64,000 nucleotides of DNA from contig CANRPY010000004.1 of the NCBI GenBank assembly GCA_947632595.1, forward strand, positions 775 to 64,774, in the 5' to 3' direction. Below are positions 21,240 through 24,036 of the stretch, piece by piece. This DNA is from an uncultured Bacilli bacterium (GTDB taxonomy: Bacteria; Bacillota_I; Bacilli_A; RF39; UBA660). Made by a program: the position numbers and the translations under genes. Below the pieces are notes generated by a model. The model was not told where the DNA came from and ran no database searches. It saw only the letters and a list, made by a program, of their open reading frames with translations. Numbering within the stretch: position 1 is the first letter of the stretch; every line of letters begins with the position of its first letter.

Positions 21240-24036
21240 AGTAGAAAAAAAGTGGCAAGATTATTGGGATGAACATCAAACATTTCAATGTGGAAAGGAA
21301 AAGGGAAAACAACCTTATTATATTTTGGTAGAGTTTCCTTATCCAAGCGGTTCTGGACTTCATGTTGGGCATGTACGTAGTTATACGGCACAAGATGCGA
21401 TTGCTAGAATGATGAGATTACAAGGATATGATGTTTTGTATCCAATGGGATGGGATGCTTTTGGAGCACCTGCTGAACAGTATGCAATTAAGAATCATAT
21501 TCATCCAAAGGAAGCTGTTAAGGAAAATATTCAGACTTTTAAAGGACAAATGAAATCATTAGGTTTCTCTTTTGATTGGAGTCGTGAGTTTTCTACAACG
21601 GATCCTGAATATTATAAATGGACACAATGGCAATTTTTACAATTTTATAAACATGGTATGGCTTATAAAGATAAGATTCCTGTCAATTGGTGTCCTACTT
21701 GTAAGAGTGTATTGTCTAATGAAGATGCGGCTGGCGGAGTTTGTGAAAGATGTGGAAGTGTTGTTGAACAAAGAGAAAAGAGTCAATGGATGCTTCGTAT
21801 GAGTGATTATGCAGAAGATTTACTTACCGGTCTTTCGGATACGAATTTTGCGGATCGTGTCAAATTAGGTCAAATTAACTGGATTGGAAAATCTGTTGGA
21901 GCTCATGTTACTTTCCAAATTGATGGACATGATAAGAATTTTACAGTATTTACGACTCGTTGTGATACGTTGTTTGGAGCAACCTATTGTGTACTTGCTC
22001 CAGAACATCAATATGTATTAGAGATTACGACTCCAGAGCATATGGATGAAGTGAAGGCTTACATCCAAGAATGTGCTAAGAAAAATGAGATGGAGAGAAC
22101 AGAACTTAACAAGGATAAGACAGGTGTCTTTACAGGAGCCTATGCGATTAATCCTGTCAATGGTGATAAAATTCCTATTTATATTTCTGATTATGTTCTT
22201 GCAAGTTATGGAACAGGTGCGATTATGGCTGTTCCTGCTCATGATGATCGTGATTATGAATTTGCGAAGAAATTTCATATTCCTATCATTCAAGTTCTAG
22301 AAGAAGAGACAGGTACTCCACATGAAAATGAGAAGGAGAAACAATCTATTGTTGCAGTTGTTCATGATCCTAAAAAAGATCAATATTTGACTATTAATTG
22401 GAAAGATAAAGGTGGTCGTCTTTTTGTTGGAGGTACTCGTAAGAACCAAGAAGATGCTGTTGCTTGTGCTAAACGTGAAATTCAAGAAGAGACAGGATAT
22501 ACGGATATTGAACTTGTATGTGAGGATTTTACGATTCGTCATCATTATTATGCTTATAACAAAGATCAATATTTTGCTATTGAAGCTACGCCTTTGCTTT
22601 TTGAACTTAAGAGTGATAAAAAGGTTTCTCAAAAACTTGATCCTGATGAAGATTTTGAAGTAGAATGGGTTGATCGTTCTACGATTGAAAAAGAAGTTAA
22701 GGATGAACTTCATAAAAAGTCTTTTGAATATGTTTTAAATCCTGGTGCTATGACAGGGGATGGAACTCATGTAAATTCAGAATTCTTAAATGGTCTACAT
22801 AAAGAGGATGCTATCAACACTATGATTGGTTGGTTAGAAGATCATGAGTGTGGAAAACAACAAGTCAATTATAAAATGAGAGATTGGATTTTCTCTCGTC
22901 AAAGATTCTGGGGAGAGCCTATTCCTATGATTCATTGTCCTAAATGTGGATGGGTTCCTATGAAGGAAGAGGATTTACCATTACTTCTTCCTGATGTTGC
23001 GGAATATGAACCAACAGAAGATGGAGAAAGTCCTCTTGCAAATATTGAAGATTGGGTTAATTGTAAGTGTCCTAAATGTGGAGGAGATGCTAAAAGAGAG
23101 ACGGATACTATGCCTAACTGGGCTGGTTCTTCTTGGTATTTCTTACGTTTTATGGATCCTCATAATACTAAAGAATTTGCATCTATGGATGCAATGAAAT
23201 ATTGGAATCGTGTTGATTGGTACAATGGTGGAATGGAACATACAGCAAGACACTTATTGTATGCACGTTTCTGGGTTCAATTCTTGTATAATATTGGATT
23301 GGTTCCTCATAAAGAAATGATTTGGACTCGTGTTAGTCATGGTATGGTGCTTGGTTCTGACAATCAAAAAATGAGTAAATCAAAGGGTAATGTGATTAAT
23401 CCGGATGATATTGTGAAAGAATATGGAGCAGATACTTTACGTACTTATGAAATGTTTATGGGAGATTATCAAATGGATGCTCCATGGAGTACCGATTCTC
23501 TTAGAGGATGTAAGAGGTTCTTGGATAAAGTGGAAAGACTTAAAGATAAGATTAATGATCAAGAAGGATACAGTGAAAAACTAGAGCCTATTCAAAATAA
23601 AACAATTAAGAAAATTGAATATGATATGATGCATATGGGTTATAATACGGTTATTTCTTCTTTGATGATTTTAGCAAATGCTTATGATGATATGGAATCT
23701 ATTACAAAAGAAGATTATCATTTGTTCTTAACCCTTCTTAATCCAATTGCTCCTCATATTACCGAAGAGTTAAATGAACAAATTGGATATTCTCCTATTT
23801 GTGAGGGAGAGTGGCCTATTTATGATGAGGAGAAAACGGTTGAGAATACCAAAGAAATTGCGGTACAGGTTAATGGCAAAGTACGTGCTACGATAGAAAT
23901 CTCTATTGATGATGATGAAGATATGATTCGTGAGAAGGCACTAAGTTGTCTTAATGTTATGAAACATATTGAAGGACATGAAGTCGTAAAAGTTATCGTT
24001 ATCAAAGGTAAAATTGTTAATATTGTTATTCGATAG
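21223..24036 (+). CDS. leuS: leucyl-tRNA synthetase with an inserted Nudix domain
   Basis: Canonical LeuRS blocks are present: HVGH (HIGH), the CP1 editing motifs [12 protein letters not shown] and [40 protein letters not shown], and KMSKS. An extra ~147 aa (nt 22300-22740) contains the Nudix box [23 protein letters not shown]. Confidence 0.95.
   Translation: [937 protein letters not shown]

What the first reader, a model, noticed from the sequence alone, without database searches (positions are those of the whole stretch)
22300..22740. A complete Nudix hydrolase module is inserted inside leucyl-tRNA synthetase
Seen in sequence: the leuS ORF is 938 aa. All canonical LeuRS blocks are present and colinear (HVGH, the CP1 editing motifs [12 protein letters not shown] and [40 protein letters not shown], KMSKS). 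Between [11 protein letters not shown] and [12 protein letters not shown] there are about 147 extra in-frame residues (aa ~361-507). In the E. coli and Bacillus enzymes, as I recall them, this position is only a short variable loop. The insert contains a letter-perfect 23-aa Nudix box GX5EX7REUXEEXGU, read as [23 protein letters not shown] (nt 22432-22500). A beta-strand-like [21 protein letters not shown] lies upstream of it, as expected for a Nudix fold. There are no stops or frameshifts and the codon style matches the rest of the gene, so this is a domain insertion rather than two genes. Established knowledge: aminoacyl-tRNA synthetases generate aminoacyl-adenylates and Ap4A-type dinucleoside polyphosphates, and Nudix enzymes hydrolyse nucleoside-diphosphate-X compounds including Ap4A. 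Inference: an embedded pyrophosphohydrolase next to the editing site could destroy Ap4A or non-cognate aminoacyl-AMP, giving a built-in alarmone control or pre-transfer proofreading function. I do not know of a described LeuRS with this architecture.
Basis: partly seen in the sequence, partly recalled or inferred. Interest (0 to 1): 0.85.

Follow-up and report, generated by a model that had tools for sequence, protein, structure and literature searches.

The report
Nudix hydrolase nested inside leucyl-tRNA synthetase
The cell's ordinary leucine-charging enzyme here carries a complete, well-conserved extra nucleotide-cleaving (Nudix) enzyme domain spliced into a loop of its proofreading domain, an arrangement that is widespread in uncultured gut Bacilli and Patescibacteria, that I found described in no paper, and whose purpose is untested.

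Summary
Window 21220-24036 (+) is one intact 938-aa bacterial-type leuS behind a Leu-specific T-box. Residues 362-509 (nt 22303-22746) form a 148-aa insertion in a short CP1 editing-domain loop. Pfam NUDIX scores 42 bits (cut-off 21). AlphaFold gives pLDDT 92, and Foldseek matches only Nudix structures.

It is not an assembly artefact. At least 64 species-level genomes (gut 'Bacilli incertae sedis' and Patescibacteria) carry it at the same site. The catalytic residues R-E-x2-E-E are kept in 62-64 of 64, and dN/dS is 0.04-0.22. The LeuRS synthetic and editing motifs are intact.

This Nudix lineage is almost exclusive to LeuRS: 57 of 63 multi-domain representatives carry the LeuRS editing domain. 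There is a second insertion site, and some genes hold up to three intact copies. Some Patescibacteria LeuRSs also carry Ham1, HAD or alpha/beta-hydrolase domains.

The substrate is unresolved. I favour a small acidic-domain (di)nucleoside-polyphosphate hydrolase linked to LeuRS adenylate chemistry (Ap4A class). Simple piggy-backing of a house-cleaning enzyme is a close rival. Aminoacyl-AMP proofreading is chemically unlikely.

No paper found describes this architecture, and databases name it only 'class I tRNA ligase family protein'. I rate it a new variant of a known kind, interest about 0.65.

The parts
20653..20833 (+). T-box leader riboswitch. The specifier-loop sequence is GAA-CUU-G, with the CUU (Leu) codon at 20739-20741.
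   Evidence: Rfam RF00230 scores 111.4 bits against a gathering score of 93. The specifier was located.
20865..21239 (+). 124-aa hydrophobic small ORF between the T-box and leuS. It overlaps the leuS start and has no Pfam family.
   Evidence: ORF; no Pfam hit. tblastn finds it directly upstream of leuS in about 40 insert-bearing Bacilli loci and in none of L070-L080. It is called as a gene on an independent contig.
21220..24036 (+). leuS, a bacterial-type leucyl-tRNA synthetase of 938 aa including the nested Nudix domain. The likely true start is the ATG at 21223.
   Evidence: TIGR00396 scores 948.9 bits against a cut-off of 548.4. Foldseek TM is 0.82 to E. coli LeuRS. T. thermophilus LeuRS E=4e-215.
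21361..21372 (+). HVGH, the class I 'HIGH' signature (aa 48-51).
   Evidence: HxGH is present in all 74 aligned LeuRSs.
21877..22302 (+). CP1 editing domain, N-terminal part (aa 220-361). It includes the T-rich [12 protein letters not shown] (nt 21952-21987) and [19 protein letters not shown] (nt 22210-22266).
   Evidence: PF13603 scores 209 bits, aa 220-374 matching profile positions 2-153 of 185. Motif conservation.
22303..22746 (+). Nested Nudix hydrolase domain (aa 362-509).
   Evidence: PF00293 scores 42.1 bits. AF2 pLDDT 91.6, pTM 0.85. Foldseek gives 466 Nudix hits at E<=1e-3. Boundaries come from insert-less relatives. dN/dS is 0.04-0.22.
22432..22500 (+). Nudix box [23 protein letters not shown] (aa 405-427). 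The catalytic residues are R419, E420, E423 and E424.
   Evidence: across 64 insert-bearing LeuRSs, G405 63, E411 62, R419 64, E420 62, E423 63, E424 62, G426 64, Y427 63.
22747..22854 (+). CP1 editing domain, C-terminal part, which resumes after the insert (aa 510-545; ...[14 protein letters not shown]...).
   Evidence: Alignment to insert-less LeuRSs resumes at aa 509/510. T. thermophilus residue 380 onward aligns here.
23368..23382 (+). KMSKS catalytic loop (aa 717-721).

Best explanation
Shown: this is the organism's T-box-regulated, housekeeping bacterial-type LeuRS. A complete Nudix domain of about 148 aa is nested in a short surface loop of the CP1 editing domain, giving a three-level nesting (Rossmann catalytic fold > CP1 > Nudix). 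The synthetic (HIGH, KMSKS) and editing (T-rich, GTG, Asp) sites are intact. The Nudix domain keeps its metal-binding and catalytic glutamates under purifying selection. It belongs to a Nudix lineage that is found almost only inside LeuRS genes of uncultured gut Bacilli and Patescibacteria.

Inferred: the protein is a bifunctional enzyme whose third active site is a Mg2+-dependent pyrophosphohydrolase acting on a small, soluble nucleotide-polyphosphate substrate rather than on RNA or aminoacyl-AMP. The most likely substrates are dinucleoside polyphosphates of the Ap4A/Np4N class, or related ATP-derived by-products, which arise when the enzyme-bound leucyl-adenylate is attacked by ATP or another NTP. 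Tethering the hydrolase to CP1 would keep it in fixed 1:1 stoichiometry with the synthetase. It would recycle these by-products to ATP/AMP in organisms with small genomes and limited nucleotide synthesis.

The first layer (active Nudix nested in a functional LeuRS) is about 0.9 likely. The specific substrate class and the coupling to LeuRS chemistry are about 0.4 likely. The confidence below refers to the second layer.
For: LeuRS identity and integrity: TIGR00396 scores 949 bits. Motifs are kept. The fold matches E. coli and T. thermophilus LeuRS. The Leu (CUU) T-box lies upstream.

Nudix identity.

Catalytic residues are kept in 62-64 of 64 species-level homologues, down to about 20-30% domain identity. 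dN/dS of the insert is 0.04-0.22. In the one close pair whose boxes are degenerate (L036/L037), dN/dS rises to 0.29 against 0.05 for the rest of the gene. That is what one expects if catalysis is the constrained function elsewhere.

Specific association with LeuRS:
- 175 clusters at 50% identity match the insert profile at E<=1e-30.
- Of 63 multi-domain representatives, 57 have PF13603. The rest are LeuRS fragments or tandem-Nudix proteins.
- 9 of 9 long hosts tested are LeuRS.
- A second insertion site exists at the N-terminal CP1 junction (P0321, P0255, L058, L068).
- Some genes carry 2-3 copies with strict boxes.
- Two LeuRS 'body' types each occur with two Nudix types.

Small-molecule rather than RNA substrate: the domain is acidic, with median pI 5.0 and net charge -9, and 63 of 64 have pI below 7.

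Ap4A/NudH-like neighbourhood: the highest target-normalised TM and lowest rmsd in Foldseek is the Aquifex Ap4A hydrolase 3i7u (TMt 0.76-0.77, rmsd 3.0-3.2), and RppH, which also binds Ap4A (7sp3), is among the top hits. The lupin Ap4A hydrolase is the fourth sequence hit. A Tyr/Phe lies 16-17 residues after the box (Y443 and Y444, conserved in 63 of 64). From memory, that is the position of the Ap_nA-hydrolase signature tyrosine.

Established knowledge: class I and II aaRSs make Ap4A from aa-AMP plus ATP, and Nudix enzymes are one of the main Ap4A-degrading families (reviews PMC10148737 and PMC7705103 were listed but not read in full).
Against: No curated Nudix equivalog model is passed. NudB scores 35.8 of 103 bits, YtkD 26.7 of 154, RppH 14.5 of 116.

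Foldseek and profile hits are spread over RppH, NudI, NUDT15, MutT, NudB, Dcp2, AvrM14 and ADP-ribose pyrophosphatases with similar scores. The substrate class is therefore not resolved.

The best sequence hit is AvrM14, named in its PDB entry as a Nudix hydrolase effector (from memory, an mRNA-decapping enzyme), not an Ap4A hydrolase.

From memory, LeuRS is only a modest Ap4A producer compared with LysRS or PheRS.

Co-occurring Ham1, HAD and alpha/beta-hydrolase inserts in Patescibacteria LeuRSs suggest a more general accretion of sanitising hydrolases.

The spatial relation of the Nudix site to the synthetic and editing sites could not be measured.

Three lineages (L036, L037, L042) have lost catalytic residues yet keep the domain.
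Confidence: 0.4

Rival explanations
1. House-cleaning piggy-back. The Nudix domain is a generic (d)NTP or non-canonical-nucleotide pyrophosphatase (MutT, NudB or NudI-like). It has simply been fused into a permissive loop of an essential, constitutively expressed protein in genome-reduced organisms, with no mechanistic coupling to leucylation or editing.
For: - Patescibacteria LeuRSs also carry a Ham1/ITPase domain (191 bits), a HAD phosphatase and alpha/beta serine-hydrolase domains at other positions. Among 63 representatives, Ser_hydrolase occurs in 6, Ham1 in 2 and HAD in 1.
- The best NCBIfam Nudix hit is NudB (dihydroneopterin-triphosphate/dATP pyrophosphatase).
- Foldseek top hits include NudI, NUDT15, MutT and CTP pyrophosphohydrolase.
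- The acidic domain fits a small-molecule substrate.
- The hosts are uncultured Bacilli incertae sedis and Patescibacteria, which are typically genome-reduced (my own knowledge).
Against: - This Nudix lineage is about 90% LeuRS-embedded, and no other host protein was found.
- It has entered LeuRS at two distinct sites and in up to three intact copies.
- It is retained at the identical loop across lineages whose LeuRS bodies are only about 45% identical.
- Random piggy-backing would predict many different host proteins.
Confidence: 0.3
2. RNA-directed Nudix. The domain is an RppH/Dcp2/AvrM14-like pyrophosphohydrolase or decapping enzyme. Riding on the tRNA-binding CP1 domain, it would act on 5'-triphosphate or Np4N/NAD-type caps of tRNALeu precursors or other RNAs.
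For: - The best solved-structure sequence matches are the AvrM14-A/B Nudix effectors (E=4e-11), and several Dcp2 decapping enzymes also match.
- E. coli RppH structures, including RNA-bound ones, are among the top Foldseek hits.
- The stand-alone homologue P0150 has RNA pyrophosphohydrolase as its best NCBIfam hit, though at 34.5 bits it is below the cut-off of 118.
- CP1 contacts the tRNA acceptor end (established knowledge of LeuRS-tRNA complexes such as 4AQ7 and 4ARC, seen as hits).
Against: - The domain is strongly acidic in 63 of 64 homologues, which is unfavourable for binding an RNA backbone.
- Mature tRNA 5' ends are monophosphates made by RNase P (established knowledge).
- Curated RppH models are far from being passed.
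Confidence: 0.12
3. Non-catalytic module. The Nudix fold serves as a structural, regulatory or ligand-sensing domain, for example binding a nucleotide to tune CP1 movement, and the conserved box reflects ligand or metal binding rather than turnover.
For: - L036, L037 and L042 have lost key box residues (RK..EE, RK..EK, RE..KT) but retain the domain in an otherwise intact gene.
- The L036/L037 domain is still under some constraint (dN/dS 0.29).
- CP1 rotates between the aminoacylation and editing states (established knowledge), so a domain mounted on it could modulate that movement.
Against: - 62-64 of 64 homologues keep every catalytic residue across very deep divergence.
- Extra copies also keep strict boxes.
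- Constraint relaxes about five-fold where the box is lost.
Confidence: 0.08
4. One reading: the Nudix domain performs pre-transfer proofreading by hydrolysing non-cognate aminoacyl-adenylates (norvalyl-, isoleucyl- or methionyl-AMP) released from the synthetic site.
For: The domain is physically tethered to the editing domain of an enzyme that must reject Nva, Ile and Met (established knowledge). The recurrent, LeuRS-specific association calls for some LeuRS-related role.
Against: Nudix enzymes cleave nucleoside-diphosphate-X linkages. aa-AMP has a single phosphate in an acyl-phosphate anhydride and is a substrate type of HIT-family enzymes, not of Nudix enzymes (established knowledge, not tested here). 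The canonical post-transfer editing site is fully intact, so no compensating need is evident.
Confidence: 0.05

Closest known systems
Canonical bacterial leucyl-tRNA synthetase (TIGR00396; T. thermophilus 1H3N/2BYT, E. coli 4AQ7/4ARC)
   Same: Same domain order, HIGH/KMSKS motifs, CP1 editing motifs, Zn-binding segment, anticodon-binding and C-terminal domains. Sequence E=4e-215 to T. thermophilus LeuRS. Model TM is 0.82 to E. coli LeuRS. T-box control as in other Bacillota.
   Different: A 148-aa Nudix domain replaces the loop of about 10-14 residues between T. thermophilus residues 368 and 380 of CP1. No solved LeuRS has a domain there. A 2026 survey of domain insertions lists PF13603 as an insertion-only module with 'zero instances of host function' (PMC13114784). 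Here it is the host.
Small single-domain Nudix hydrolases of the NudH/RppH, Ap4A hydrolase, NudB and AvrM14 neighbourhood
   Same: Nudix box, alpha/beta/alpha sandwich and a size of about 135-150 aa. Profile hits: AvrM14 (8DP8/8DP9, E=4e-11), 3FCM, lupin Ap4A hydrolase 1F3Y, NudB 2O1C, Dcp2. Foldseek TM is 0.6-0.77 to 2AZW, RppH, Aquifex Ap4A hydrolase 3I7U, NudI and NudB.
   Different: It is not free-standing but nested in another enzyme. It passes no curated equivalog model. Identity to any solved Nudix structure is 13-22%. The last box position is a conserved Tyr. Family-specific conserved residues (Y443/Y444, K448, E477, W483) define a separate lineage that includes a few stand-alone proteins of about 160 aa (P0143-P0157).
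Other aminoacyl-tRNA synthetases with an extra enzymatic domain, e.g. IleRS with an N-acetyltransferase domain (NCBIfam NF040702 ileS_w_GNAT)
   Same: A class Ia synthetase that has acquired an additional catalytic domain. The existence of that family is shown by its appearance in the NCBIfam hit list.
   Different: Different synthetase, different added fold (GNAT against Nudix). I did not examine its insertion site or biology. No such curated 'exception' model exists for LeuRS with Nudix in the NCBIfam release searched.
Mycoplasma mobile LeuRS lacking CP1 (PDB 3ZIU)
   Same: Another lineage-specific remodelling of the CP1 region of LeuRS in a genome-reduced member of the Bacillota-related lineage. 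It appears among the structure hits.
   Different: The opposite direction: there CP1 is lost, whereas here CP1 is intact and enlarged by a further catalytic domain.

Membership tests
Bacterial-type leucyl-tRNA synthetase (TIGR00396 leuS_bact) | Whole-protein score above the curated equivalog cut-off | tested here: met
   948.9 bits against a cut-off of 548.4, in two stretches split by the insert.
Bacterial-type leucyl-tRNA synthetase (TIGR00396 leuS_bact) | Class I HIGH and KMSKS signature motifs | tested here: met
   HVGH at aa 48-51 and KMSKS at aa 717-721.
Bacterial-type leucyl-tRNA synthetase (TIGR00396 leuS_bact) | CP1 editing domain with the threonine-rich region, GTG and the catalytic Asp | tested here: met
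   PF13603 scores 209 bits. TTRCDT and [15 protein letters not shown] are conserved in all insert-bearing relatives.
Bacterial-type leucyl-tRNA synthetase (TIGR00396 leuS_bact) | Overall fold of solved bacterial LeuRS | tested here: met
   AF2 model pLDDT 83.4. Foldseek TMt is 0.82 to 4AQ7/5OMW and 0.77 to 2BTE.
Bacterial-type leucyl-tRNA synthetase (TIGR00396 leuS_bact) | Leucylation of tRNALeu and hydrolytic editing of mischarged tRNALeu | not testable with these tools
   Only indirect support: a T-box with the Leu codon CUU lies upstream, and dN/dS of the body is 0.05-0.15.
Nudix hydrolase superfamily (Pfam PF00293) | Domain HMM above the gathering threshold | tested here: met
   37.1 bits (whole protein) and 42.1 bits (insert alone) against 21.1. 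All 63 census representatives tested also hit NUDIX.
Nudix hydrolase superfamily (Pfam PF00293) | Nudix box Gx5Ex5[UA]xREx2EExGU | tested here: met
   G405, E411, A417, R419, E420, E423, E424 and G426 are all present. The final U is Tyr427, aromatic rather than aliphatic, and is conserved in 63 of 64. The motif definition follows PMC4734340.
Nudix hydrolase superfamily (Pfam PF00293) | Alpha/beta/alpha sandwich Nudix fold | tested here: met
   AF2 pLDDT 91.6, pTM 0.85. There are 466 PDB matches at E<=1e-3; all 50 listed are Nudix proteins, with TM 0.5-0.77. The same secondary structure appears in the full-length model.
Nudix hydrolase superfamily (Pfam PF00293) | Divalent-cation-dependent pyrophosphohydrolase activity | not testable with these tools
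   Inferred from conservation of the catalytic residues and purifying selection.
RppH/NudH-type RNA pyrophosphohydrolase and (di)nucleoside polyphosphate hydrolase | Curated equivalog model score | tested here: not met
   NF001938 scores 14.5 bits against a cut-off of 116 for the insert. The stand-alone homologue P0150 scores 34.5 against 118.
Nudix Ap4A hydrolases | Aromatic (Tyr) residue about 16-18 residues downstream of the Nudix box, and closest structural similarity to Ap4A hydrolases | tested here: inconclusive
   Y443 and Y444 (+16 and +17) are Tyr/Phe in 63 of 64. Aquifex Ap4A hydrolase 3I7U has the best TMt (0.77) and rmsd (3.0 A), but RppH, 2AZW, NudI and NudB score similarly. The Tyr criterion is recalled from memory, not checked against a source.
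NudB dihydroneopterin-triphosphate/dATP pyrophosphatase (NF006961) | Curated equivalog model score | tested here: not met
   This is the best NCBIfam Nudix hit, but it scores only 35.8 bits against a cut-off of 103.
MutT 8-oxo-dGTPase (TIGR00586) | Curated equivalog model score | tested here: not met
   No TIGR00586 hit for the insert at E<=1. The only MutT-type hit is mycobacterial MutT1 (NF052459), at 12.9 bits against a cut-off of 475. MutT structures appear only as general fold matches.

The most novel reading that the evidence does not exclude
The fusion is a natural 'Rosetta stone'. In gut Bacilli and Patescibacteria, LeuRS would be a three-active-site enzyme whose nested Nudix domain works in cis with the synthetase. 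It would destroy the dinucleoside polyphosphates (Ap4A/Np4N, or caps derived from them) that the leucyl-adenylate site generates, and it may be regulated by leucine, ATP or tRNA occupancy and by CP1 rotation. That would be a self-limiting alarmone source and the first case of a synthetase carrying its own by-product hydrolase. It would also be part of a broader, undescribed habit of Patescibacteria LeuRSs of hosting nucleotide-processing domains (Nudix x1-3, Ham1, HAD, alpha/beta hydrolase).
Probability: 0.3. Interest if true: 0.85.

Novelty: new variant of a known kind. Interest (0 to 1): 0.65.

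Why it matters
Aminoacyl-tRNA synthetases are among the best-studied enzymes, and the LeuRS CP1 domain is a validated drug target (benzoxaboroles). A recent large survey classed CP1 as a module that is always the insert and never the host (PMC13114784).

Here CP1 hosts a further intact catalytic domain. The arrangement is conserved under purifying selection in at least 64 species-level genomes from two very different uncultured lineages, gut Bacilli and Patescibacteria. The Nudix lineage involved is almost exclusive to LeuRS and has entered the enzyme at two sites and in multiple copies.

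A dedicated fusion of this kind is strong comparative-genomic evidence that LeuRS and a Nudix substrate are functionally linked. It gives a direct experimental handle on the long-debated link between synthetases and Ap4A-type nucleotides, through wild type against an EE-to-QQ mutant and insert-deleted enzymes.

Practically, public annotation labels these proteins only 'class I tRNA ligase family protein'. The architecture is therefore invisible to users, and a curated model and name are missing.

If the domain turns out to be a plain house-cleaning enzyme, the finding is still a clear example of how genome-reduced bacteria pack accessory hydrolases into essential proteins.

Tried and rejected
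1. Assembly chimera or frameshift: rejected. The same intact ORF is on an independent 131-kb contig, in more than 60 GTDB genomes and in all 120 listed database clusters.

2. The exact-protein look-up for the window's own sequence found nothing. This is probably because callers start at the ATG one codon later.

3. Functional link to the downstream Fic-domain gene (24089-25273): rejected. A Fic ORF follows leuS in only one other locus, L005.

4. Stand-alone Nudix homologues as guides to function. P0150 lies next to another Nudix gene and 300 nt upstream of a class I synthetase, but that synthetase is ValRS, not LeuRS. P0154 has an unrelated context. Neither was informative.

5. 'CP1+Nudix cassette transfer' inferred from high CP1 identity between divergent LeuRS bodies: rejected as stated. 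CP1 is equally conserved (80-87%) against the insert-less relative L075. Only the four-combination pattern (two bodies, each with both Nudix types) remains as evidence for at least one domain replacement.

6. Assigning a Nudix sub-family by NCBIfam, a PDB profile search or Foldseek: inconclusive. All hits are below the curated cut-offs or are similar to one another.

7. Five literature searches for any description of a LeuRS- or aaRS-Nudix fusion found none.

8. Measuring the distance and orientation of the Nudix site relative to the editing and synthetic sites: not possible, because model coordinates are not exposed.

10. Other Nudix genes in the window: none were found by a box-pattern scan of all ORFs of at least 80 aa.

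Full report
OBSERVATION.
The window encodes a single ORF at 21220..24036 (+) of 938 aa. An independently assembled 131-kb metagenome contig carries a 99%-identical gene, called from the ATG one codon later (937 aa). It has the same neighbours: a GH31 glycosidase, a 124-aa ORF, leuS and a Fic gene.

The protein scores 948.9 bits on TIGR00396 (leuS_bact, cut-off 548.4), in two stretches.

LeuRSs without the insert (Bacillus, Mesobacillus, Dielma, Solobacterium, Bulleidia) align to aa 1-361 and 509/510-938 and have only about 10-14 residues in between. In T. thermophilus LeuRS the site falls between residues 368 and 380 of the editing domain. The insert is therefore aa 362-509 (nt 22303-22746).

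The Nudix box lies exactly at nt 22432-22500. Pfam NUDIX scores 37.1 bits in context and 42.1 bits for the insert alone (E=1e-10), against a gathering cut-off of 21.1. The only flaw in 'letter-perfect' is that the final hydrophobic position is Tyr427. Base composition of the insert matches the gene.

STRUCTURE.
The insert alone, modelled with a 50-sequence alignment, gives pLDDT 91.6 and pTM 0.85, with a beta-rich core and the box helix at residues 53-65 of the construct. Foldseek against the PDB returns 466 matches at E<=1e-3. All 50 listed are Nudix enzymes, with TM 0.5-0.77: 2AZW, NudI, RppH, Aquifex Ap4A hydrolase 3I7U, NudB, NUDT15 and AvrM14.

The full-length model (pLDDT 83.4) keeps the same Nudix secondary structure at aa 360-510, with pLDDT about 87-95. 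It superposes on E. coli and T. thermophilus LeuRS-tRNA complexes with TM up to 0.82. The protein is thus a three-level nesting: Rossmann catalytic fold, CP1 inside it, Nudix inside CP1. I could not measure where the Nudix active site points, because coordinates are not exposed.

IT IS THE HOUSEKEEPING LeuRS.
A T-box leader (RF00230, 111 bits) lies at 20653-20833. Its specifier loop reads GAA-CUU-G, and CUU is a leucine codon. Between the T-box and leuS lies a 124-aa hydrophobic ORF with no Pfam family. That ORF is conserved directly upstream of leuS in about 40 insert-bearing Bacilli loci and in none of the insert-less relatives.

The rest of the window is an ordinary Bacilli chromosome: RNase R, PBP1A, EzrA and a T-box-controlled tyrS. 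No other ORF of at least 80 aa in the window has a Nudix box.

DISTRIBUTION.
A scan of one genome per GTDB species with the insert and its flanks returned 69 loci with a match of about 600 nt, meaning the insert is present. In 64 of these I recovered a single intact ORF, usually 935-972 aa, with the insert at the same alignment position.

Two groups of hosts appear:
- Uncultured gut 'Bacilli bacterium' MAGs from rabbit, mouse, human, chicken and ruminant samples. The named relatives Candidatus Onthocola and Candidatus Onthousia are 'Bacilli incertae sedis'.
- Patescibacteria: Vogelbacteria, Nomurabacteria, Paceibacterota and the Saccharibacteria-labelled MAGs.

Some MAG labels, such as Muribaculaceae, are clearly unreliable.

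In the 5.8-billion-protein collection, the 120 best full-length hits are all about 936 aa and all carry PF13603 plus PF00293. One cluster alone has 442 members. The only name any source gives is 'class I tRNA ligase family protein'.

SELECTION.
Across the 64 insert-bearing LeuRSs the box residues are nearly invariant, even where the domain is only 20-30% identical to the window's: G405 63, E411 62, R419 64, E420 62, E423 63, E424 62, G426 64 and Y427 63. Other family-wide conserved positions are Y443/Y444 (Tyr/Phe), K448, E477 and W483.

Nei-Gojobori dN/dS for the Nudix segment is 0.04-0.22 in 13 pairs with intact boxes, against 0.05-0.15 for the rest of the gene. The exceptions are informative. 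L036 and L037 (RK..EE and RK..EK) and L042 (RE..KT) have degenerate boxes. In the L036/L037 pair the Nudix dN/dS is 0.29 against 0.05 for the rest, and their Nudix identity to the window drops to 50% although the body is 78-85% identical. Catalytic competence is therefore what is normally being preserved.

The synthetic and editing motifs are intact in all members.

THE NUDIX LINEAGE IS LeuRS-SPECIFIC.
An exhaustive profile search of 1.84 billion representative proteins gave 175 clusters at E<=1e-30. Of 63 multi-domain representatives (at least 230 aa) among the top 150, all hit NUDIX and 57 hit the LeuRS editing domain. The remainder are C-terminal LeuRS fragments or tandem-Nudix-only proteins. 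Nine of nine long hosts examined individually are LeuRS. About two dozen hits are stand-alone proteins of about 160 aa.

A second insertion site exists at the N-terminal junction of CP1:
- P0321 has a Nudix only there (aa 245-357) and an uninterrupted CP1.
- P0255, P0257, P0259, P0260, L058 and L068 combine copies at both sites.
- Up to three copies keep strict boxes.

Within the gut Bacilli there are two LeuRS 'bodies' that are only about 47% identical in the catalytic and C-terminal parts. One of them is 83%/69% identical to an insert-less LeuRS, L075. Each body occurs with two different Nudix types: window-like, and a Patescibacteria-like type in L051 and L053. By four-gamete logic, at least one domain-level replacement has occurred. 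I withdraw the stronger idea that CP1 travelled with the insert, because CP1 is equally conserved against L075.

WHAT ELSE LeuRS CARRIES IN PATESCIBACTERIA.
Pfam scans of the very long genes show the following:
- L064: Nudix plus a Ham1/ITPase domain (191 bits).
- L058: three Nudix stretches plus a HAD phosphatase.
- L068: three Nudix stretches plus an alpha/beta serine hydrolase.
- L057 and L066: an alpha/beta hydrolase plus Nudix.
- L049: two Nudix stretches.

Among the 63 representatives, Ser_hydrolase occurs in 6, Ham1 in 2 and HAD in 1.

FUNCTION.
What is shown is a functional-looking LeuRS with an additional, selectively maintained Nudix active site. The substrate is not shown.

Sequence comparisons place the domain nearest to the AvrM14 Nudix hydrolase effectors (from memory, mRNA-decapping enzymes; E=4e-11). 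After those come an uncharacterised Clostridium Nudix (3FCM), lupin Ap4A hydrolase, NudB and Dcp2. NCBIfam's best hits (NudB, YtkD, RppH) are all far below their cut-offs. Foldseek does not discriminate either, although the Aquifex Ap4A hydrolase has the best target-normalised TM and rmsd.

The domain is acidic in 63 of 64 homologues, with median pI 5.0 and net charge -9. That argues against an RNA-backbone-binding role and for a small-molecule substrate. A conserved Tyr/Phe 16-17 residues after the box sits, as I recall, where Ap_nA hydrolases have their signature tyrosine. This is a lead from memory, not a test.

Aminoacyl-AMP is an unlikely substrate on chemical grounds, because it has one phosphate in an acyl-phosphate bond rather than a diphosphate linkage.

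I therefore favour a (di)nucleoside-polyphosphate hydrolase coupled to LeuRS adenylate chemistry (confidence about 0.4). The main argument is the exclusive, repeated, multi-site association of this Nudix lineage with LeuRS. The main rival (about 0.3) is that LeuRS is merely a permissive scaffold for house-cleaning hydrolases in genome-reduced bacteria, as the Ham1, HAD and alpha/beta-hydrolase inserts suggest. RNA-end processing (about 0.12), a non-catalytic role (about 0.08) and aa-AMP proofreading (about 0.05) follow.

COMPARISON WITH WHAT IS KNOWN.
Both parts are members of well-known families, and the membership tests are met for bacterial LeuRS and for the Nudix superfamily. The Nudix domain is not a member of any curated functional sub-family (tests not met for RppH, NudB and MutT; inconclusive for Ap4A hydrolase).

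Five full-text searches found no description of a LeuRS- or aaRS-Nudix fusion. A 2026 survey of domain insertions reports the LeuRS editing domain as strictly an insert with 'zero instances of host function' (PMC13114784). NCBIfam has an 'exception' model for IleRS with a GNAT domain but none for this architecture.

The sequences are abundant in public data with automatic Pfam hits, so the architecture is new to the literature rather than to the databases.

VERDICT.
I rate it a new variant of a known kind, with interest about 0.65. The most novel reading not excluded is a synthetase carrying its own by-product or alarmone hydrolase that works in cis, at probability about 0.3.

Noticed in passing
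L064:2783-6862, L058:1137-5753, L068:2108-6784, L057:2417-5809, L066:2387-5818, L049:2975-6337: Patescibacteria LeuRS genes of 1121-1559 aa carry further nested domains besides Nudix. These are Ham1/ITPase (L064, 191 bits), a HAD phosphatase (L058), alpha/beta serine hydrolases (L057, L066, L068) and two or three Nudix stretches (L049, L058, L068). LeuRS appears to be a general scaffold for nucleotide or ester hydrolases in this group.
   Followed up: partly
window 20865-21239 (+): A 124-aa hydrophobic ORF with no Pfam family sits between the Leu T-box and leuS and overlaps the leuS start. It is conserved in that position in about 40 insert-bearing Bacilli loci, across both LeuRS body types, and is absent upstream of the insert-less leuS genes L070-L080. 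It is presumably co-transcribed under T-box control.
   Followed up: partly
window 34300-36296 (+): A second T-box leader (34300-34483, 96.9 bits) is followed by a 180-aa ORF (34520-35062) and then tyrS (35064-36296). This is the same 'T-box, small ORF, synthetase' layout as at leuS. I did not characterise the 180-aa ORF.
   Followed up: no
L002, L003, L005-L007, L009-L011, L013-L016, L021, L022, L024, L027-L029, L031, L035, L053 versus the window, L001, L004, L008, L012, L051 and others: There are two LeuRS 'bodies', only about 47% identical in the catalytic and C-terminal parts. One has HAGH/KMGKR in place of HVGH/KMSKS and is 83%/69% identical to the insert-less L075. Each body occurs with two different Nudix types. 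Four combinations imply at least one domain-level replacement. This rests on identity clustering only; no formal phylogeny was done.
   Followed up: partly
L036, L037, L042 (Nudix box region of leuS): Three lineages have degenerate Nudix boxes (ALRKIQEETGY, ALRKIQEKTGY, RREIEKTTGY) in otherwise intact LeuRS genes. The L036/L037 Nudix segment evolves about five times faster than the rest of the gene (dN/dS 0.29 against 0.05). This suggests loss of catalysis while the fold is retained.
   Followed up: partly
L081:5562-8930 (also L082): The stand-alone homologue of the insert (P0150, 170 aa, 6001-6513) lies back-to-back with a second, unrelated Nudix gene (5562-5984). It is 300 nt upstream of a short 705-aa ValRS (6813-8930) whose match ends at profile position 695 of the 860-position curated valS model NF004349. 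The Nudix-ValRS neighbourhood was seen on four near-identical contigs from what appears to be one lineage.
   Followed up: partly
window 24089-25273 (+): A Fic/DOC-family (AMPylase-type) gene carrying the HPFNDGNGRTGR motif lies immediately downstream of leuS. A Fic ORF follows leuS in only one other locus (L005), so the adjacency looks incidental.
   Followed up: yes
L046:3011-5788 (CP091739.1, complete-chromosome MAG): Here the insert-bearing leuS is split into three overlapping ORFs of 409, 390 and 167 aa. This may be long-read frameshift error or a pseudogene. I did not resolve which.
   Followed up: no
L024, L029, L041, L052 (labelled Muribaculaceae); L045, L049 (labelled Saccharibacteria); L031 (labelled Clostridia): Several TPA MAG records carry taxon labels that do not fit their LeuRS. 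For example, 'Muribaculaceae' bins have the Bacilli-type LeuRS-Nudix at 54-55% identity to the window over the whole protein, with the same upstream small ORF in three of the four (no hit in L052). Taxonomic statements based on these labels should be treated with care.
   Followed up: no
Alignment A4 (one member, not identified): One of the 63 census representatives combines this Nudix type with the ArgRS-type domains DALR_1 (E=2e-24) and tRNA-synt_1d, and another carries a PD-(D/E)XK nuclease domain. These may be other hosts or merged neighbouring genes.
   Followed up: no
P0160, P0162 (metagenome fragments): In P0160 the Nudix domain follows directly after the 'NWIGRSTGAEISFEI' segment, that is, at the CP1 N-junction. 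P0162 has a Nudix in the CP1 loop of a LeuRS whose editing motif is degenerate (PLHNEKDYEL in place of VPAHDxRDYEF). This hints that some hosts may have an inactive editing site.
   Followed up: no
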